In this document: positions 2,827 to 61,302 of the stretch, piece after piece
How the letters are laid out: each line of letters starts with the position of its first letter
How positions within the stretch are numbered: the stretch's first letter is position 1
Source of the DNA: Escherichia phage JoYop
Strand: one strand, 5' to 3'
Length of the DNA stretch: 64,000 bases
Sequence record: OR769032.1
Program-made: the position numbers and the translations under genes
Notes under the pieces: generated by a model
What the model saw: only the letters and a program-made list of their open reading frames with translations
Told to the model about the DNA's origin: nothing
The model's database searches: none

Positions 2827-3101
2827 TCGAAATAATCTTCAATTTCGTAATCATGGACGTAAATCATTATAGTTTTTAATACATCATCAATACTTTTTCC
2901 TGGAGCTGGAATTACGTAAAAATATCCCGCCTTTAAGTTATCTTTATAAGTTCCAACCAAGAAATCATTATTCTCAAGATGTAGTTCTTCAACTAATTCA
3001 TTAACAATTGAGTGGTATAAATTTGGTAGAAACTTATATAGCTTTTCTAGAATATCAATTTTGATTGTATATTGAACCACAGATTGAGAATCAATAATCA
3101 T
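2823..3101 (-). CDS. arn: Arn-like anti-restriction protein (McrBC inhibitor)
   Basis: 92 aa, same size and position (next to asiA) as T4 arn; sequence consistent with my recollection. Confidence 0.7.
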   Translation of the reverse strand: MIIDSQSVVQYTIKIDILEKLYKFLPNLYHSIVNELVEELHLENNDFLVGTYKDNLKAGYFYVIPAPGKSIDDVLKTIMIYVHDYEIEDYFE

Positions 3102-3184
3102 AGACCTTCCCCTTATGTTTCTGTTTGCGATTAGATTCTTTAAACGCTTTCTTCTTATCCTTATGAACAGAAGCTTTATTAAAA

Positions 3185-6863: not shown

Positions 6864-7014
6864 TGGTAGATAACAACACAAATGTTAAATATGCACACAT
6901 ACCCTGAGCTAAAGCTTGTGAAAACACACTGCTAGCATCGATACAGATAGTTAAAACACATGCTACTATCCAACAAATAAATGAAATAACTCCTAATAAT
7001 TTTGCGATATTCAT
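6856..7014 (-). CDS. small membrane protein (52 aa), Ac-like by position and size
   Basis: Manual translation MNIAKLLGVISFICWIVACVLTICIDASSVFSQALAQGMCAYLTFVLLSTND; lies between stp and gene 52 as ac does in T4. Confidence 0.4.
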   Translation of the reverse strand: MNIAKLLGVISFICWIVACVLTICIDASSVFSQALAQGMCAYLTFVLLSTND

Positions 7015-7021
7015 ATTTTCC

Positions 7022-7102
7022 TCACTGGCGTCCGAAGACGCCTTTAGTTTTAAGATTATTACGATAGAACTGCATCACGTGTTCGTTGTGGAAATTACTC
7101 AT
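7022..7102 (-). CDS. stp: Stp peptide (26 aa), activator of host anticodon nuclease / restriction modulator
   Basis: Manual translation [26 protein letters not shown] matches my recollection of T4 Stp; start overlaps ndd stop (TAATG). Confidence 0.8.
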
Positions 7103-7545
7103 TAATATGCCTGCAAAACAAATTTAAAGTTATCAGCCAACATACGATTCATTTCTTCAAGTGTTTGATACTCAGAATGATGATTACGAGTAAACGCCAA
7201 AGCTAACTGACCTTTTCCAAACCCCGTCGTCAGAGGTTTCATCTTAGAAGCAGGTAGATAAAATACCGTGTATGCCATATTGTTATTTGCAATAGTACGC
7301 GCAAGCTGAGATCGACGCTGACGAATATGACTTAGAACCGCACTGAATCCTTGCTTAGAACGCTGATTACCTACATAAAATCGTGCAGATACACATGAAC
7401 CGTCAAATTCATTTACCAAAAAGTAAAATCCAGGTTTAGACAAAATGTCTTTGTGCGGAGTTCCCAAAAACCACTCACCACCCTTAATTGTACCAATAAC
7501 AGTAGCACCTGCATTATTCAGATCAGTAACAGTCATATATTTCAT
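7102..7545 (-). CDS. ndd: Ndd nucleoid disruption protein
   Basis: Track ORF 7102..7593 trimmed to the ATG preceded by SD GAGGAAAT ([13 protein letters not shown]...); ~147 aa; position and sequence consistent with T4 ndd. Confidence 0.7.
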
Positions 7546-7577
7546 ATTAATTTCCTCTAAATTATTTTCTACTCCAA

Positions 7578-7599
7578 GGCCGCATGAATACACGCGGCC
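7578..7599 (-). promoter_or_regulatory. stem-loop (GGCCGC-10 nt loop-GCGGCC) in the ndd 5-prime region
   Basis: 6-bp GC inverted repeat seen in sequence between ORF 7606..7821 and ndd. Confidence 0.3.
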
Positions 7600-7605
7600 G
7601 ATAAA

Positions 7606-7821
7606 TTAATCGTCGCAGTCGACGCTCAATTCCCAGAACTCTTCTACAGTATAAGTTTCAGTATCATTTTCAATACAGAAACGTTCATTACTGTTATTTG
7701 CTAAAGTAGCATTAACTGTCGGTTTCTCGCTAGTGCTCTTAAGAGGTGAAATGCGAATTAACTGATCACCATTATCTAAACAGAAAATTTCACCAACTTT
7801 TACATCTTTAAAACTTTTCAT
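7606..7821 (-). CDS. hypothetical protein (71 aa)
   Basis: Track ORF; part of a run of small ORFs in the ndd-denB interval. Confidence 0.5.
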   Translation of the reverse strand: MKSFKDVKVGEIFCLDNGDQLIRISPLKSTSEKPTVNATLANNSNERFCIENDTETYTVEEFWELSVDCDD

Positions 7822-7829
7822 AATTCACC

Positions 7830-7940
7830 TCAAGGAGTATAAAATCCAAACGCAGTTGTTGACCATCCCATCCAATACGGGAAATTTGCGCCAATGTAAA
7901 ACATAAGAATATAAAACCAACCGCTCAGCAAATTCATCAT
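7830..7940 (-). CDS. tiny hydrophobic peptide (36 aa)
   Basis: Manual translation MMNLLSGWFYILMFYIGANFPYWMGWSTTAFGFYTP; ATGA overlap with upstream ORF. Confidence 0.3.
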   Translation of the reverse strand: MMNLLSGWFYILMFYIGANFPYWMGWSTTAFGFYTP

Positions 7941-8155
7941 TTTACACCATTCCAAATTGTTTCAACCACGGATTTTAAACCATTCTGATGAATATCCATT
8001 CCGACTACTGTCATCAAATAGATTCCAACTACAACTGAACCTAATGCAAAAATCAGCATGAAAATGAATAAAGCCGGAAAAATATTATCGAAAAACCATT
8101 CCATAAATGTAAAAGCACTGCGTTTACGTTTCATATTTTCCTCACATAAATCCAA
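7937..8155 (-). CDS. hypothetical membrane protein (72 aa)
   Basis: Track ORF with hydrophobic core ALFIFMLIFALGSVVVGIYLMTVV. Confidence 0.5.
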   Translation of the reverse strand: MDLCEENMKRKRSAFTFMEWFFDNIFPALFIFMLIFALGSVVVGIYLMTVVGMDIHQNGLKSVVETIWNGVK

Positions 8156-8255
8156 AGTAAGCGTTTAATACATCAATCATTAAAACGATTGGGAATATAC
8201 TCAAAACAACTAAAATTATAATTATATTCCATATAGCTTTAACAATCTTTTTCAT
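8142..8255 (-). CDS. tiny membrane peptide (37 aa)
   Basis: Track ORF 8142..8351 trimmed to the ATG after SD GGAGG (MKKIVKAIWNIIIILVVLSIFPIVLMIDVLNAYFGFM); the N-terminal extension in the track is translated promoter/leader. Confidence 0.45.
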   Translation of the reverse strand: MKKIVKAIWNIIIILVVLSIFPIVLMIDVLNAYFGFM

Positions 8256-8313
8256 TTTCTGTTCCTCCGTAGTTGATAGTTGTATAGTACCACAGAGGAA
8301 CAGTCTTGTAAAC
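8256..8313 (-). promoter_or_regulatory. early promoter plus leader cassette (type B copy 1)
   Basis: Coding strand GTTTACAAGACTGTTCCTCTGTGGTACTATACAACTATCAACTACGGAGGAACAGAAA-ATG; 61 bp identical to 61242..61302. Confidence 0.6.
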
Positions 8314-8319
8314 CACTTT

Positions 8320-8418
8320 TTAAAAATATTCGTAATAAATGTGAATACCAATCACTACTGCCGAAACTTGCGCAACCCACCACGCACAAGCAATAAGTAC
8401 AGAATTCAAAATTTTCAT
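8320..8418 (-). CDS. tiny membrane peptide (32 aa)
   Basis: Manual translation MKILNSVLIACAWWVAQVSAVVIGIHIYYEYF with SD GAGG. Confidence 0.3.
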   Translation of the reverse strand: MKILNSVLIACAWWVAQVSAVVIGIHIYYEYF

Positions 8419-8501
8419 AATAACCTCATTACAAAAGTAAATGTTAAACAAATTACCGGAATACTAATTAACCAAACAAAACACCACCATAACGAACTCA
8501 T
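8415..8501 (-). CDS. tiny hydrophobic peptide (28 aa)
   Basis: Manual translation MSSLWWCFVWLISIPVICLTFTFVMRLL; stop overlaps next start. Confidence 0.25.
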   Translation of the reverse strand: MSSLWWCFVWLISIPVICLTFTFVMRLL

Positions 8502-8529
8502 AGTTCAATCTCAACGATTTTCATTTTAC

Positions 8530-8736
8530 TCAATAATCCGCTAAAAGATCAACGATTGCATCACGAAGACATTTATTCGCAATACGTTTAAGAGCAATTT
8601 CAGTTTCAGGCGCATTTCGAATAATCATTGAATTCAATTCAGCTTCGGCAAACTGAAGTTCTTTGACTAATTCAGCTTTATATTTTCCTTGACCTTTCTT
8701 AGCTTTTGCTCGTTTTAATTCAGCTGTAGTAAACAT
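8530..8736 (-). CDS. hypothetical protein (68 aa)
   Basis: Track ORF 8530..8835 trimmed to the ATG after the conserved leader (MFTTAELKRAKAKKGQGKYKAELVKELQ...). Confidence 0.5.
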   Translation of the reverse strand: MFTTAELKRAKAKKGQGKYKAELVKELQFAEAELNSMIIRNAPETEIALKRIANKCLRDAIVDLLADY

Positions 8737-8800
8737 TTTATTCTCCAAATCCGTATCAGTTGATAGTTGTATAGTACCACAGTCCTTGTGGTATGTAAAC
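8737..8800 (-). promoter_or_regulatory. early promoter plus leader cassette (type A)
   Basis: Coding strand GTTTACATACCACAAGGACTGTGGTACTATACAACTATCAACTGATACGGATTTGGAGAATAAA-ATG. Confidence 0.6.
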
Positions 8801-8816
8801 CATTTTGTGAAAATTT

Positions 8817-9374
8817 TTAAATGGAAAGATACCATCCGTTGTAGTTACTTTTTCTTACAACCTTACGAAGGTCTTCTCTATCACCGATGAACTTCGGAGT
8901 GTACTGGATGACACCTGGATGAATTTCTTTAGTGTTGAATATAATTATACAGTCTGCGACCTGATGATTTAGAATGGGCCCTAGATTTATTCCAGAACCG
9001 TACGGATACTCTCCGCTGCATCCTGTTGTTACCGAAATCCAACGAGAGTCAGTTTGATGTGTTTTGACTTCTACTCGAAGACCGCAGTATTTTGGATGTG
9101 CCAAAACATCCCATGCATATGTATACGGGTCATCGACATCTTCTTGACCTTTGTTAACATACCCGCTTAGCCAATCTGCTACAAAAAATTCTGCGTACAC
9201 AGCGATACGGCATCTTTCGATAACTTCTGCCTTATCCTGATTTGGATTTTGCTTTAAAGAATATCTTGCAGTATCAGCAATTTTGACCTTCATTTCACTA
9301 GTCAAGTCACCGTTCGATAGGGTAAATGTCGGAATCTGAAATAGTCTCTGTAGCCCCGGATTCGTTTTCTGCAT
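8817..9374 (-). CDS. denB: endonuclease IV DenB
   Basis: 185 aa, same size and position (next to rIIB region) as T4 denB. Confidence 0.8.
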   Translation of the reverse strand: MQKTNPGLQRLFQIPTFTLSNGDLTSEMKVKIADTARYSLKQNPNQDKAEVIERCRIAVYAEFFVADWLSGYVNKGQEDVDDPYTYAWDVLAHPKYCGLRVEVKTHQTDSRWISVTTGCSGEYPYGSGINLGPILNHQVADCIIIFNTKEIHPGVIQYTPKFIGDREDLRKVVRKSNYNGWYLSI

Positions 9375-9636
9375 TTAGACTTTCCTTTTTACCGCTGAGA
9401 TAAGCGTTATACACTTTAAGAGTACCGTAGTAAATTCGATCGTTTTCATCTAAAGACTCGCGGTCAAGTTCATCGAGTTCCTTTTTATCCATGACTATAA
9501 CATCATTACAGTAAAGAAACCCAAGTTTTTCGTGACCAAACTCAAATTTATTACAGTACACAATATTAGCGTGATGATTTCCGTGTAGTTTAATCTCTTT
9601 TATGTCGGAATCACCGATATTCATACAATAAATCAT
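9307..9636 (-). CDS. hypothetical protein (109 aa)
   Basis: Track ORF; overlaps denB start by 68 nt in another frame; SD AAGGTAAA before first ATG. Confidence 0.45.
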   Translation of the reverse strand: MIYCMNIGDSDIKEIKLHGNHHANIVYCNKFEFGHEKLGFLYCNDVIVMDKKELDELDRESLDENDRIYYGTLKVYNAYLSGKKESLNAENESGATETISDSDIYPIER

Positions 9637-35794: not shown

Positions 35795-36031
35795 TCAAAT
35801 GCAAGTAGTAATTACACCTGTAGTGCTCACACATGTATTCCCTAATTGAACACCTAAAGATCCGTTAGTATTCATATGAAGATTATCACCAATTTTAGTT
35901 GATACTTTCCCATTCATATGAATAATAACACTAGATTCAATAGGAGTCTGAATATCATTTTCAACATCAATAAATGGAATTGTTGCTAATGCAACTAAAC
36001 AAACTGCTAAGCAACCATAAACAATTTTCAT
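35795..36031 (-). CDS. small secreted protein (78 aa)
   Basis: Track ORF trimmed to the ATG after leader GGAGAACAAA (MKIVYGCLAVCLVALATIPF...); signal-peptide-like N-terminus. Confidence 0.5.
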   Translation of the reverse strand: MKIVYGCLAVCLVALATIPFIDVENDIQTPIESSVIIHMNGKVSTKIGDNLHMNTNGSLGVQLGNTCVSTTGVITTCI

Positions 36032-60716: not shown

Positions 60717-61244
60717 TTATGCGAGTACCGTCTTTAACCGTTCTTCAAACTTCCGAAGAGTATTTTGGCGTTCAGCTCTTTGCTTTTTGTAAGTTTCAAT
60801 ACGCTCTGAAATGAGAGTGTATCGTTCATTCACTGATTCTTTCATAAAATCAGGAATTTCACGAGAAGCTTTAATCTCGTCAAATTTATCAATAACAGCT
60901 TGCTCTTCAGCAATTAAGTTATCATACATTAAAATATCTTTCTTGATGAACTCAATATCTTCTTGAGTTACACGAGATAATTTAGATGCTTTATCCTTTT
61001 TGTACTGTTCGTTAGTATCACGAGACCAGTGTAATGTACGATTTTTATTCGTATTTTTGTAAATTTCTACAATACCAATCTCATCAATAATAACGATCCA
61101 ATTCCAACGGGATTTGTAAATCTGTCCTCCATCAACCGTAATTTCACCTCCGATTGAGATGTCATTAAAGAACTTGCTTTGTGCTTCTGACTTAAATTTA
61201 CCATCGTTGTAATTTACCAGGTTGAAAATATCTTTAGCATTCAT
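60717..61244 (-). CDS. hypothetical protein (175 aa)
   Basis: Track ORF 60717..61304 trimmed to the ATG after leader GGAGGAACAGAAA (MNAKDIFNLVNYNDG...). Confidence 0.55.
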   Translation of the reverse strand: MNAKDIFNLVNYNDGKFKSEAQSKFFNDISIGGEITVDGGQIYKSRWNWIVIIDEIGIVEIYKNTNKNRTLHWSRDTNEQYKKDKASKLSRVTQEDIEFIKKDILMYDNLIAEEQAVIDKFDEIKASREIPDFMKESVNERYTLISERIETYKKQRAERQNTLRKFEERLKTVLA

Positions 61245-61302
61245 TTTCTGTTCCTCCGTAGTTGATAGTTGTATAGTACCACAGAGGAACAGTCTTGTAA
61301 AC
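61242..61302 (-). promoter_or_regulatory. early promoter plus leader cassette (type B copy 2)
   Basis: 61 bp identical to 8253..8313. Confidence 0.6.

What the first reader, a model, noticed from the sequence alone, without database searches (positions are those of the whole stretch)
7606..8736. Chain of seven translationally coupled micro-ORFs, mostly single-pass membrane peptides
Between ndd and denB lie ORFs of 71, 36, 72, 37, 32, 28 and 68 aa, most with ATGA/TAATG overlaps. Four are predicted single-helix hydrophobic peptides and two cassette promoters lie within the run. Three of these are below the ORF-track cutoff and would be missed by automated annotation.
Basis: partly seen in the sequence, partly recalled or inferred. 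Interest (0 to 1): 0.35.

Follow-up and report, generated by a model that had tools for sequence, protein, structure and literature searches.

The report
Known T4 ndd.1–ndd.6 small-gene cluster
The run of tiny reading frames is real and under selection, but it is the long-annotated ndd.1–ndd.6 early-gene cluster of T4-type phages plus one mobile extra gene, whose proteins still have no known job.

Summary
The window is a Tequatrovirus (T4-like phage). All seven ORFs lie on the minus strand between denB and ndd and match annotated genes:
- ndd.1 (71 aa)
- ndd.2 (36 aa)
- ndd.2a (65 aa, not 72)
- ndd.4 (37 aa)
- ndd.5 (32 aa)
- ndd.6 (28 aa)
- RB32ORF266c (68 aa, absent from T4)

Each has a PHROG family. 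Window-versus-relative pN/pS is 0.05–0.27, and 67 of 102 variable sites fall at third codon positions. Homologues with intact frames occur in distant T4-like phages; ndd.4 is the most widespread (34 of 40 loci). Four products are strongly hydrophobic single-helix peptides.

"Seven coupled ORFs" is overstated. Only two ATGA overlaps join the seven; a third joins ndd.6 to an unnoticed 8-codon remnant ORF. There are no TAATG overlaps. An early promoter splits the run into two units.

Both promoters are repeated PeSL cassettes already described at this locus. In the ndd.4 cassette, a 15-bp hairpin pairs the promoter spacer with the ndd.4 Shine-Dalgarno, and the arms differ in a matching way between lineages.

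Published T4 data show early transcripts for all, detected Ndd.1 protein, and no knockdown fitness effect. Structure searches gave no functional clue. Verdict: real, already known, low interest.

The parts
7606..7821 (-). ndd.1 orthologue, 71 aa. Soluble, with an acidic C-terminus. Predicted small beta-barrel plus a C-terminal helix.
   Evidence: 97% identical to T4 Ndd.1. phrog_2183 at 2.5e-38. tblastn match in 791 phage records. pN/pS 0.10 and variable sites 2/3/12 by codon position. AF2 best model pLDDT 84; the other four models 55-68. No significant PDB fold match. T4 protein detected early by mass spectrometry (PMC9697503 Table S2).
7830..7940 (-). ndd.2 orthologue, 36 aa. Aromatic-rich, uncharged, moderately hydrophobic. 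Its start overlaps the ndd.2a stop (ATGA).
   Evidence: 97% identical to T4 Ndd.2. phrog_4135 at 1.7e-24. Kyte-Doolittle maximum 1.17. pN/pS 0.07. Family found in 17 of 40 loci, with a conserved GxNxPYWxG motif.
7937..8134 (-). Full-length ndd.2a, 65 aa, Pfam DUF7248. Basic N-terminus, one TM helix, and a conserved C-terminal GLKSVVExIWNG motif. GAGGA Shine-Dalgarno, 7 nt after the ndd.4 stop.
   Evidence: PF23906 at 72.6 bits against a cut-off of 27. phrog_2401. Kyte-Doolittle maximum 2.71. pN/pS 0.10 and variable sites 3/2/18. Found in 22 of 40 loci. In the T4 reference a 1-nt deletion after the ATG splits it into the annotated ndd.3 and ndd.2a.
8142..8255 (-). ndd.4 orthologue, 37 aa. Single TM helix, MKK N-terminus, conserved KAIWN...FP...D pattern. 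First gene after promoter P1.
   Evidence: 86% identical to T4 Ndd.4. phrog_3098 at 1.8e-20. Kyte-Doolittle maximum 3.08. The most widespread member, in 34 of 40 loci. Only 6 clusters among 1.84 billion representative proteins.
8259..8303 (-). 15-bp hairpin. The 5' arm (8303-8289) is the spacer of promoter P1. The 3' arm (8273-8259) contains the ndd.4 Shine-Dalgarno GGAGG. The -10 box and the expected start site (about 8277) lie in the loop.
   Evidence: Inverted repeat I5. MFE -23.2 kcal/mol, z = -5.9. Arms differ between lineages but stay complementary. Cognate spacer/SD duplex is -26 against a best non-cognate of -12.6 kcal/mol. The identical cassette occurs again before the ORF starting at 61244.
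8284..8312 (-). Early promoter P1 (PeSL cassette type A): TTTACA, 17 nt, TG-extended TACTAT. It begins 8 nt after the ndd.5 stop.
   Evidence: Promoter scan. Matches the published PST/T4 PeSL consensus TTTACW-N17-TAYWAT (PMC4122927). The 24-mer core occurs 6 times in the window, against 0 expected.
8320..8418 (-). ndd.5 orthologue, 32 aa. Hydrophobic peptide whose start overlaps the ndd.6 stop (ATGA). Found only in Tequatrovirus at the sensitivity used.
   Evidence: 96% identical to T4 Ndd.5. phrog_5011 at 3.9e-26. 493 phage records. Kyte-Doolittle maximum 2.18. pN/pS 0.05 and variable sites 1/0/7.
8415..8501 (-). ndd.6 orthologue, 28 aa. Hydrophobic peptide with a weak Shine-Dalgarno. Its start overlaps the stop of the 8-codon ORF.
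   Evidence: 100% identical to T4 Ndd.6. phrog_8851 at 1.6e-17. 493 phage records. Kyte-Doolittle maximum 2.33. pN/pS 0.06. Homologues at 40-48% identity in other lineages, with a conserved WCxxW...IPxIC pattern.
8498..8524 (-). 8-codon ORF, MKIVEIEL*. It is what remains of an 87-aa gene after deletion of everything upstream of its last eight codons (a second ATGAAA lies at the intact gene's own start). It starts 5 nt after the o7 stop, and its TGA overlaps the ndd.6 ATG.
   Evidence: Translation. The intact 87-aa gene ends ...NSNEMKI(A/V)EIEL* in L003-L007 and L028. The same remnant is present in T4 and RB32.
8530..8736 (-). RB32ORF266c-type gene, 68 aa. Soluble and all-helical. A variable cassette gene absent from T4.
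   Evidence: 95% identical to RB32ORF266c. phrog_4535 at 1.8e-23. 128 phage records, against about 493 for its neighbours. 92% amino-acid and 86% nucleotide identity in L033, where ndd is only 62% identical and the flanks are unrelated. AF2 pLDDT 82.5 with three helices. No significant fold match.
8771..8799 (-). Early promoter P2 (PeSL cassette type B): TTTACA, 17 nt, TG-extended TACTAT. A 5-bp hairpin (CCACA-AGGAC-TGTGG) sits in the spacer. It lies between the denB stop and o7.
   Evidence: Promoter scan. It shares 24 identical nt with P1. The same 5'UTR and Shine-Dalgarno module recurs before the ORFs starting at 36031 and 63374.
7578..7599 (-). 9-bp GC-rich hairpin followed by UUGGAG, in the 60-nt gap between ndd.1 and ndd. 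There is no U-tract, so it is not a canonical terminator.
   Evidence: Fold of -19.3 kcal/mol, z = -2.9. A hairpin followed by a GGAG occupies the same position in most lineages. In some it lies inside an intact GTTTACA...TATAAT promoter.

Best explanation
This is the ndd-denB 'hyperplastic' segment of a T4-type phage. It holds seven small, dispensable but selected early genes: ndd.1, ndd.2, full-length ndd.2a, ndd.4, ndd.5, ndd.6 and the mobile RB32ORF266c gene.

Expression (steps 1-3 follow from the sequence; step 4 is inferred):
1. Host sigma-70 RNA polymerase starts at two repeated early-promoter cassettes (PeSLs). P2 sits just downstream of denB. P1 sits between ndd.5 and ndd.4.
2. Unit 1 is P2 -> o7 -> 8-codon remnant ORF -> ndd.6 -> ndd.5. 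Unit 2 is P1 -> ndd.4 -> ndd.2a -> ndd.2 -> ndd.1, probably continuing into ndd.
3. Within each unit, ribosomes pass between genes across ATGA overlaps or 5-8 nt spacers. ndd.6 and ndd.2 have weak Shine-Dalgarno sequences and probably depend on this coupling.
4. RNA reading through from P2 folds a 15-bp hairpin between the P1 spacer and the ndd.4 Shine-Dalgarno. That hairpin attenuates the read-through RNA or blocks ndd.4 initiation on it. RNA started at P1 begins inside the loop and leaves the Shine-Dalgarno free.

Products (inferred): four, perhaps five, single-pass inner-membrane peptides (ndd.2a, ndd.4, ndd.5, ndd.6, possibly ndd.2) and two small soluble proteins (Ndd.1 and the 68-aa helical protein).

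Most likely function (inferred, untested): accessory modulators of the host envelope or inner membrane during the first minutes of infection, useful only on some hosts or in some conditions.

Gene content between the promoters is reshuffled by recombination at the repeated cassettes.
For: Identity:
- Synteny with T4, RB32 and PaulHMueller, and 86-100% amino-acid identity to the T4 or RB32 proteins.
- Every ORF has a PHROG family. o3 is Pfam DUF7248.

Coding:
- 0 of 1000 shuffles reach the observed ORF tiling.
- pN/pS is 0.05-0.27, and variable sites number 23/12/67 at codon positions 1/2/3.
- Intact homologues occur in lineages where ndd is only 46-65% identical.

Expression in T4:
- All ndd.x transcripts are early, Ndd.1 protein is detected early, and denB is middle (PMC9697503 Table S2).

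Promoters and cassettes:
- Two TTTACA-N17-TG-TACTAT promoters.
- Six copies of the core 24-mer in the window.
- Whole promoter-5'UTR-SD modules are reused elsewhere in the window.
- PeSLs and this very locus are described in PMC2839356 and PMC4122927.

Coupling:
- Junction lengths of -4, +7/+10 and +8 are conserved across lineages, even where the downstream gene differs.
- The 8-codon remnant keeps the ATGA junction to ndd.6 in T4, RB32 and the window.

Hairpin:
-.

Membrane peptides:
- Kyte-Doolittle maxima of 2.2-3.1 and basic N-termini.

Dispensability:
- The T4 sa-delta-9 deletion (52.1 to denB) is viable at about 50% yield (PMC6071114).
- CRISPRi-ART scores every ndd.x gene 'Not Fit' (PMC11879866).

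Mobility:
- o7 is in 128 records against about 493 for its neighbours, and appears at 86% nucleotide identity in an otherwise unrelated context.
- Four different denB-to-ndd.6 arrangements were seen.
Against: - No direct evidence of translation exists for the six hydrophobic or very small products. T4 proteomics lists ndd.2 to ndd.6 as not detected. That is expected for tiny hydrophobic peptides, but it leaves translation unproven.
- Membrane insertion, topology and translational coupling are inferred from sequence only.
- The ndd.4 variable sites among close relatives are not biased to third positions (5/1/2). Its support comes from deep conservation instead.
- The hairpin has no U-tract. Whether it terminates transcription, blocks translation or stabilises RNA is open. 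In three of seven lineages the spacer-SD pairing is weak or arranged differently.
- No homology or fold match gives a biochemical function.
Confidence: 0.8

Rival explanations
1. Some or all of the micro-ORFs are chance open frames in AT-rich promoter-bearing spacer DNA. The conserved element would be the DNA or RNA (PeSL cassettes, hairpins), not peptides.
For: - Three ORFs are only 28-36 aa long.
- T4 proteomics did not detect ndd.2 to ndd.6.
- Promoter cassettes can create spurious frames. Examples are the 101-aa extension of o7 and the 69-aa TTG extension of ndd.4, both of which read through promoters.
- T4's annotated ndd.3 is such an artefact.
Against: - pN/pS is 0.05-0.10 for six ORFs and 0.27 for the seventh, with 67 of 102 variable sites at third positions.
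- Frames and motifs persist at 36-61% amino-acid identity where the nucleotide sequence has diverged.
- Each start has a Shine-Dalgarno or an overlapping upstream stop.
- 0 of 1000 shuffles give the observed tiling.
Confidence: 0.03
2. The hydrophobic peptides are membrane-damaging toxins of the type I toxin or holin kind. They would depolarise or permeabilise the host inner membrane early, to shut off host physiology.
For: - Size (28-37 aa), a single hydrophobic helix and early expression resemble Hok, TisB or Ldr-type peptides (own knowledge).
- Kyte-Doolittle profiles.
Against: - No sequence similarity to any toxin, holin or defence-related family.
- Removing or knocking down the genes has little effect on T4 growth.
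- Early membrane collapse would harm a phage that needs about 25 min of host energy (inference).
- Toxicity was not tested here.
Confidence: 0.07
3. The cluster, especially the conserved ndd.4/ndd.2a pair, is the determinant of the T4-induced stimulation of phosphatidylglycerol synthesis, which is lost in the sa-delta-9 deletion.
For: - Deleting 52.1 to denB abolishes the stimulation. None of the named genes in the interval explains it, and several products are predicted membrane proteins (PMC6071114).
- ndd.4 and ndd.2a are the most conserved members.
Against: - The deletion also removes ac, stp, ndd, denB and 52.1. Mutants lacking dCTPase, EndoIV (denB) and Alc also lose the stimulation, according to the same paper.
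- There is no gene-level mapping and no similarity to lipid enzymes or their regulators.
Confidence: 0.1
4. The small membrane proteins act in phage-phage or phage-defence conflict. They would mediate superinfection exclusion, like T4 Imm and Sp, or inhibit membrane-associated host defence or abortive-infection systems.
For: - They sit in a hyperplastic region next to known conflict genes (stp, ac, rIIB).
- They are dispensable in laboratory hosts yet under purifying selection.
- Presence and absence are patchy, and o7 has been transferred horizontally.
- Such accessory regions are thought to hold adaptive functions (PMC4122927).
Against: - No similarity to Imm, Sp or any known anti-defence protein was found in PHROGs, Pfam or NCBIfam.
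- The PADLOC library was not searched.
- There is no experimental link.
Confidence: 0.25

Closest known systems
Phage T4 genes ndd.1, ndd.2, ndd.2a/ndd.3, ndd.4, ndd.5 and ndd.6 (NC_000866, T4p269-T4p275) and RB32ORF266c
   Same: Same position between ndd and denB, same order and strand, and 86-100% amino-acid identity. Same PHROG families.
   Different: - The window carries the 68-aa RB32ORF266c gene, which T4 lacks.
- ndd.2a is an intact 65-aa frame here. The T4 reference has a 1-nt deletion that produces the annotated ndd.3 and a truncated ndd.2a.
- T4 annotates ndd.4 as 42 aa, against 37 aa here.
PeSL (promoter-early stem-loop) regulatory cassettes of T4-type phages (Arbiol et al. 2010, PMC2839356; Comeau et al. 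2014, PMC4122927)
   Same: - TTTACW-N17-TAYWAT early promoter with AT-rich upstream DNA.
- Stem-loop within or overlapping the promoter.
- Shine-Dalgarno and ATG at the 3' end.
- Many copies per genome.
- They flank genes that differ between close relatives. The 2014 paper illustrates an exchange at ndd.4/ndd.5.
   Different: The papers treat the stem-loop as a terminator or attenuator. Here the 3' arm of the ndd.4 cassette contains the Shine-Dalgarno, and the arms differ in a matching way between lineages. That adds, or substitutes, a translational-masking reading. I did not find this reading in the passages I read.
T4 genes whose ribosome-binding site is masked by a hairpin on long transcripts and exposed on transcripts started inside the hairpin (e, soc, 49, I-TevI; own knowledge of the T4 literature, not checked here)
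   Same: The geometry is the same. A promoter is embedded in a hairpin whose 3' arm holds the Shine-Dalgarno, so only promoter-proximal RNA would be translatable.
   Different: In the classical cases a late or middle promoter gives temporal control. Here an early promoter sits downstream of another early promoter, so the effect would be insulation between adjacent early units. This is untested.
Small T4 membrane proteins of known function (Imm, Sp, Ac, RI; own knowledge)
   Same: They are small early or accessory proteins with one or two TM helices, encoded in dispensable regions. ac (52 aa here) lies about 600 bp away in the window.
   Different: No sequence similarity was detected, and no phenotype is assigned to any ndd.x gene.
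Bacterial small membrane proteins and type I toxins (AcrZ, MgtS, TisB, Hok; own knowledge)
   Same: They are 20-50 aa single-helix peptides that act by binding larger membrane proteins or by perturbing the bilayer.
   Different: There is no homology. The products are phage-encoded, and the family is confined to T4-like phages (6 clusters among 1.84 billion representative proteins for ndd.4).

Membership tests
T4 ndd.1-ndd.6 / RB32ORF266c orthologues | Location between ndd and denB, on the same strand and in the same order | tested here: met
   Annotated regions of T4, RB32 and PaulHMueller compared with the window ORFs.
T4 ndd.1-ndd.6 / RB32ORF266c orthologues | High sequence identity to the named proteins, and the same protein family | tested here: met
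   86-100% amino-acid identity to T4 and 94-100% to RB32. PHROG hits from 1.6e-17 to 2.5e-38 for all seven.
T4 ndd.1-ndd.6 / RB32ORF266c orthologues | Early transcription and translation in infected cells | not testable with these tools
   Known for T4 only. RNA is early for all. Protein is detected only for Ndd.1 (PMC9697503 Table S2).
PeSL cassette | Sigma-70-type early promoter (TTTACW-N17-TAYWAT) with AT-rich upstream DNA | tested here: met
   Hexamers at 8312-8284 and 8799-8771, both with a TG extension. The upstream sequences aatatttttaaaaag and aaaaattttcacaaaa are visible.
PeSL cassette | Stem-loop between -35 and -10, or overlapping -10 | tested here: met
   P1 has a 15-bp stem with the -10 box in the loop. 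P2 has a 5-bp stem in the spacer.
PeSL cassette | Repeated in the genome and flanking genes that vary between close relatives | tested here: met
   6 copies in the window against 0 expected. Four arrangements between denB and ndd.6. The denB-ndd interval spans 279-2443 bp with 1-8 ORFs.
PeSL cassette | Demonstrated promoter and terminator activity | not testable with these tools
   Shown for RB49/phi1 PeSLs with lacZ fusions (PMC2839356), not for these copies.
Translationally coupled operon | Overlapping or closely abutting stop and start codons | tested here: met
   ATGA at ndd.6/ndd.5, at ndd.2a/ndd.2 and at remnant-ORF/ndd.6. Gaps of 5, 7 and 8 nt elsewhere. The gaps before ndd.4 (64 nt) and before o7 (about 80 nt) are not coupled.
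Translationally coupled operon | Downstream translation depends on upstream translation | not testable with these tools
   Inferred from the weak Shine-Dalgarno sequences of ndd.6 and ndd.2.
Single-pass small membrane proteins | One hydrophobic segment of about 19 or more residues with Kyte-Doolittle mean >= 1.6 | tested here: met
   ndd.2a 2.71, ndd.4 3.08, ndd.5 2.18, ndd.6 2.33. ndd.2 scores 1.17 and does not meet it. ndd.1 and o7 do not meet it.
Single-pass small membrane proteins | Experimental membrane localisation | not testable with these tools
   No data were found. The 'outer membrane' and 'periplasmic' labels in GenBank are predictions.
Pfam DUF7248 (ndd.2a) | Score above the Pfam gathering threshold | tested here: met
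   72.6 bits against a cut-off of 27, covering residues 5-63.
Known toxin, holin or anti-defence families | Sequence or fold similarity to a characterised member | tested here: not met
   No hits in Pfam, NCBIfam or PDB sequences. Foldseek found nothing significant for Ndd.1 or o7. The PADLOC library was not searched.

The most novel reading that the evidence does not exclude
The pair ndd.4 (about 37 aa) plus ndd.2a/DUF7248 (about 65 aa) would be a two-part inner-membrane device conserved across T4-like genera. ndd.4 is always the first gene behind an early promoter, and its Shine-Dalgarno is masked on read-through RNA. The pair would act on a host envelope process in the first minutes of infection. 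One candidate is the genetically unmapped stimulation of phosphatidylglycerol synthesis lost in T4 sa-delta-9. Another is a membrane-based defence system.
Probability: 0.12. Interest if true: 0.5.

Novelty: already known. Interest (0 to 1): 0.15.

Why it matters
The finding adds little, because the genes, their promoters and the shuffling mechanism are already in the literature and the databases. Three things have practical value.
1. The check gives clean comparative evidence that even the 28-37 aa frames are real genes under purifying selection.
2. It corrects annotations: ndd.2a is 65 aa, T4 'ndd.3' is a frameshift artefact, the 101-aa form of RB32ORF266c reads through a promoter, and 'naphthalene 1,2-dioxygenase' is a wrong label for Ndd.1.
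3. It singles out ndd.4 and ndd.2a as the conserved core. These are the members most worth testing for the unmapped membrane-lipid phenotype of the T4 sa-delta-9 deletion.

Tried and rejected
- tblastn of ndd.4 against the phage collection returned nothing, because the low-complexity filter removes the hydrophobic query. I used the fetched loci and HMMs instead.
- Pfam gave only DUF7248 for ndd.2a. NCBIfam gave nothing.
- A word-indexed homologue search for Ndd.1 returned only close relatives. A profile query reached 36-55% identity but still only unnamed phage proteins.
- The AF2 model of Ndd.1 is a small beta-barrel. The best PDB matches (EF-P domain I, Tudor domains) have E >= 0.38, so they are not significant. 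The viral library returned only uncharacterised phage proteins.
- The AF2 model of o7 is a helical bundle. The best PDB match has E = 1.2, which is generic for helical hairpins. PDB sequence search had nothing below E = 0.42.
- An exhaustive representative search with ndd.4 found 6 clusters, which shows a narrow family.
- Rfam found no RNA family in 7000-9500.
- Literature searches for ribosome profiling of T4 small proteins found nothing relevant. The HIDEN-SEQ preprint main text does not mention these genes.
- I rejected the 72-aa TTG start for o3, the 69-aa TTG form of ndd.4 and the 101-aa form of o7 as read-through of neighbouring coding or promoter sequence.
Full report
**What the window is.** Region 7000-9400 is 93-96% identical at the nucleotide level to several hundred Tequatrovirus genomes, including RB32, RB14, PaulHMueller and T4. 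All genes here are on the minus strand. Read 5' to 3' on that strand, the order is:
- denB (9374-8817)
- the seven micro-ORFs
- ndd (7545-7102)
- stp (7102-7022)
- ac (7014-6856)
- 52.1
- gene 52

This is the layout annotated in T4, RB32 and PaulHMueller.

**Checking the observation.** The seven ORFs exist at the stated coordinates.
- They cover 90.5% of the 1131 nt on one strand, against 9.8% on the other. None of 1000 dinucleotide-preserving shuffles reached that coverage (mean 0.30, max 0.74).
- A 19-residue Kyte-Doolittle scan gives strong single hydrophobic segments for ndd.2a (2.71), ndd.4 (3.08), ndd.5 (2.18) and ndd.6 (2.33). ndd.2 is borderline (1.17). The 71-aa and 68-aa products have none.

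Four details need correction.
1. The '72 aa' ORF starts at a TTG inside ndd.4. The ATG at 8134 behind GAGGA gives 65 aa. This agrees with the RB32 and PaulHMueller annotations and with distant homologues.
2. Only two of the six junctions are ATGA overlaps and none is TAATG. The others are gaps of 7, 8, 28 and 64 nt.
3. The second promoter lies outside the stated coordinates.
4. The genes are not missed in practice. T4 annotates the 28-aa and 32-aa genes, and all seven have PHROG families.

**Identity of each ORF.**

| Window ORF | Named gene | Identity |
|---|---|---|
| 7606-7821 | ndd.1 | 97% to T4 |
| 7830-7940 | ndd.2 | 97% to T4 |
| 7937-8134 | ndd.2a, as annotated at 65 aa in RB32 | 95% |
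| 8142-8255 | ndd.4 | 86% to T4, 94% to RB32 |
| 8320-8418 | ndd.5 | 96% |
| 8415-8501 | ndd.6 | 100% to T4 |
| 8530-8736 | RB32ORF266c, absent from T4 | 95% |

ndd.2a also matches Pfam DUF7248 at 72.6 bits against a cut-off of 27.

**Are they genes?** Three lines of evidence say yes.
- *Purifying selection.* Against eight close relatives (two for o7, seven for o3 and o5), pN/pS is 0.10, 0.07, 0.10, 0.27, 0.05, 0.06 and 0.06 for o1 to o7. Variable sites fall 23, 12 and 67 at codon positions 1, 2 and 3.
- *Deep conservation.* In 36 IMG/VR loci whose ndd is 47-93% identical, the denB-ndd interval stays syntenic but varies from 279 to 2443 bp and holds 1-8 small same-strand ORFs. Iterated HMM searches over 40 loci (36 IMG/VR, three GenBank, the window) find ndd.4 in 34, ndd.2a in 22, ndd.1 in 18, ndd.2 in 17, ndd.6 in 16, o7 in 10 and ndd.5 in 8. 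Conserved motifs include:
  - MKKxxKAIWN...FP...D in ndd.4
  - a basic N-terminus, a TM helix and GLKSVVExIWNG in ndd.2a
  - WCxxW...IPxIC in ndd.6
  - GxNxPYWxG in ndd.2
- *Distribution in phage genomes.* In 50,697 phage genomes, tblastn finds ndd.1 in 791 records, ndd.2a in 494, ndd.5 in 493, ndd.6 in 493 and o7 in 128. An exhaustive search of 1.84 billion representative proteins finds only six ndd.4 clusters, so the family is narrow.

**Published experiments on T4.**
- Wolfram-Schauerte et al. 2022 (PMC9697503, Table S2) classify the RNAs of ndd.1, ndd.2, ndd.2a, ndd.3, ndd.4, ndd.5 and ndd.6 as early and denB as middle. They detect Ndd.1 protein early. The hydrophobic products are listed as not detected.
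- The sa-delta-9 deletion (52.1 through denB) is viable at about half yield. It abolishes the infection-induced stimulation of phosphatidylglycerol synthesis. The ndd.1-ndd.6 products are described as unknown (PMC6071114).
- CRISPRi-ART knockdowns of every ndd.x gene are 'Not Fit', meaning no fitness effect (PMC11879866).

**Expression architecture.** Two promoters of the form TTTACA-N17-TG-TACTAT lie at 8799-8771 (P2, between denB and o7) and at 8312-8284 (P1, starting 8 nt after the ndd.5 stop).
- They share a 24-nt -10/initial-transcribed block. This block occurs six times in the window, all on the minus strand, against zero expected.
- Whole promoter-5'UTR-SD modules are reused. The 59-nt P1 module is identical before the ORF starting at 61244. 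The P2-type 5'UTR recurs before the ORFs at 36031 and 63374.
- These are the PeSL cassettes of Arbiol et al. 2010 and Comeau et al. 2014. [quoted passage not shown]

The run is therefore two early units, not one chain:
- P2 -> o7 -> 8-codon ORF -> ndd.6 -> ndd.5
- P1 -> ndd.4 -> ndd.2a -> ndd.2 -> ndd.1

**The overlooked 8-codon ORF.** MKIVEIEL* (8524-8498) starts 5 nt after the o7 stop and ends in an ATGA overlap with ndd.6.
- In L003-L007 and L028, an 87-aa gene occupies this place. It begins MKFKFYY and ends ...NSNEMKI(A/V)EIEL*.
- The window, RB32 and T4 keep only its last eight codons, which begin at a second ATGAAA near the 3' end of the gene, placed behind the upstream ribosome-binding region in place of the gene's own ATGAAA start. 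The simplest reading is a deletion between the two ATGAAA repeats.
- The remnant preserves the termination-reinitiation junction to ndd.6, whose own Shine-Dalgarno is weak.
- Four arrangements exist between denB and ndd.6:
  - P2-87aa
  - P2-o7-87aa (PaulHMueller)
  - P2-o7-remnant (window, RB32)
  - P2-remnant (T4)

**A hairpin linking promoter and ribosome-binding site.** The P1 spacer (8303-8289) is complementary to 8273-8259, which contains the ndd.4 GGAGG.
- The RNA fold is -23.2 kcal/mol with z = -5.9. The -10 box and the expected start site (about 8277) lie in the loop.
- Other lineages have different arms that remain complementary:
  - CAUCUCCAUUAG / CUAAUGGAGAUG
  - CAUCUCCGGUGGUUG / CAACUACUGGAGAUG
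  - CUCCGUUAG / CUAACGGAG
- Cognate spacer/SD duplexes beat all non-cognate pairings in the Tequatrovirus group (-26 against -12.6), the L009 group (-26.8 against -20.6) and the L039 group (-22.1 against -18.2).
- The L024 group is a tie. Three groups have a weaker or different arrangement.
- Within Tequatrovirus, all arm differences are C/U changes opposite G.
- My inference is that RNA reading through from P2 has the ndd.4 Shine-Dalgarno buried, or is attenuated there, while P1-started RNA lacks the 5' arm. The PeSL papers read the stem-loop as a terminator or attenuator. There is no U-tract after this one.

**Mobility.**
- o7 is present in roughly a quarter of Tequatrovirus records.
- It also occurs at 62% identity in Salmonella phages.
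- It occurs at 92% amino-acid and 86% nucleotide identity in L033 (phage VR26), where ndd is only 62% identical. There the similarity ends within about 12 nt of the gene on each side. The gene sits behind a different PeSL and in front of the 88-aa homologue of the 87-aa gene.

**Function.** Nothing biochemical could be assigned.
- The Ndd.1 model is a small beta-barrel with a C-terminal helix. The best model has pLDDT 84 and the other four 55-68.
- The best PDB matches for Ndd.1 have E >= 0.38. The viral library returns only uncharacterised phage proteins.
- The o7 model is three helices at pLDDT 82.5, with only generic helical matches at E >= 1.2.
- My working view, marked as inference, is that these are accessory early proteins acting at the host inner membrane or envelope. 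Phage-host or phage-phage conflict is the likeliest role, and the unmapped phosphatidylglycerol phenotype is a specific testable candidate.

**Verdict.** The feature is real, is more than chance, and is correctly sensed as small membrane-peptide genes with cassette promoters. But it is the known ndd.1-ndd.6 cluster in a known PeSL-shuffled region, and the 'seven coupled ORFs' picture is only partly right. Interest is low. The modest additions are the Shine-Dalgarno-masking hairpin with lineage-matched arms, the remnant ORF that preserves coupling, the T4 ndd.3 artefact, and the identification of ndd.4/ndd.2a as the conserved core.

Noticed in passing
window 8125-8134; L002 (T4 NC_000866) locus 3049-3129: The T4 reference has a 1-nt deletion (ATGAAACGT to ATG-AACGT) right after the ndd.2a start codon. 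T4's annotated ndd.3 (26 aa, a PHROG singleton) and its 40-aa ndd.2a are products of that frameshift. The window and all 8 other close relatives examined keep one 65-aa frame.
   Followed up: partly
window 8498-8524 (-): An 8-codon ORF, MKIVEIEL*, is the last eight codons of a deleted 87-aa gene that is intact in L003-L007 and L028; they start at a second ATGAAA near that gene's 3' end. It keeps an ATGA junction with ndd.6.
   Followed up: yes
window 61244-61302 (-) and 8255-8313 (-): The whole 59-nt P1 module (-35, spacer, -10, 5'UTR, SD-masking hairpin, up to the ATG) is identical in front of an unrelated 175-aa ORF starting at 61244. The P2-type 5'UTR/SD module recurs before the ORFs at 36031 (78 aa) and 63374.
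   Followed up: partly
window 7578-7599 (-) and the equivalent gap in L008-L038: A GC-rich hairpin followed within a few nt by GGAG lies upstream of ndd in most lineages. In some (L008, L010, L025, L038) it sits inside an intact GTTTACA...TATAAT promoter. In Tequatrovirus no clear promoter remains, which looks like a decayed PeSL. The ndd ribosome-binding region TGAGGAAATTAATATG is nearly invariant.
   Followed up: partly
window 8737-8835 (-): Many database entries give RB32ORF266c as 101-104 aa, starting at an ATG inside denB and reading through promoter P2. The 33-residue extension resembles the spurious extension before ndd.4, because both translate the same promoter repeat. The 68-aa form fits the Shine-Dalgarno and the distant homologues.
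   Followed up: yes
window 7606-7821 (-): Ndd.1 homologues are labelled 'naphthalene 1,2-dioxygenase', 'outer membrane protein' or '12.8 kDa protein' in various records. No support for any of these was found in the family or fold searches, so they appear to be propagated mis-annotations.
   Followed up: partly
L033 2139-2369: The o7 gene is 86% nucleotide-identical to the window in phage VR26, whose ndd is only 62% amino-acid identical. The similarity ends about 12 nt outside the gene on each side. This is a clean case of single-gene transfer between T4-like lineages.
   Followed up: yes
window 8386-8397 (-), ndd.5 residues 8-11: ndd.5 contains L-I-A-C, which fits the lipoprotein lipobox pattern. 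It follows a very short (10-residue) N-terminal segment. This may explain the old 'outer membrane' prediction. It is probably too short to be a real signal peptide.
   Followed up: no
L006 2369-2620: In one close relative, ndd.6 is fused into an 83-aa frame that runs through the ndd.5 region and promoter P1, so ndd.5 is lost as a separate gene.
   Followed up: no
window 9307-9636 (-) against denB 8817-9374 (-): A 109-aa ORF (RB32ORF268c-like, absent from T4) overlaps the annotated denB start by 68 nt. PaulHMueller annotates a shorter denB (477 bp). The true denB start in phages carrying this extra gene may therefore be the internal ATG.
   Followed up: no
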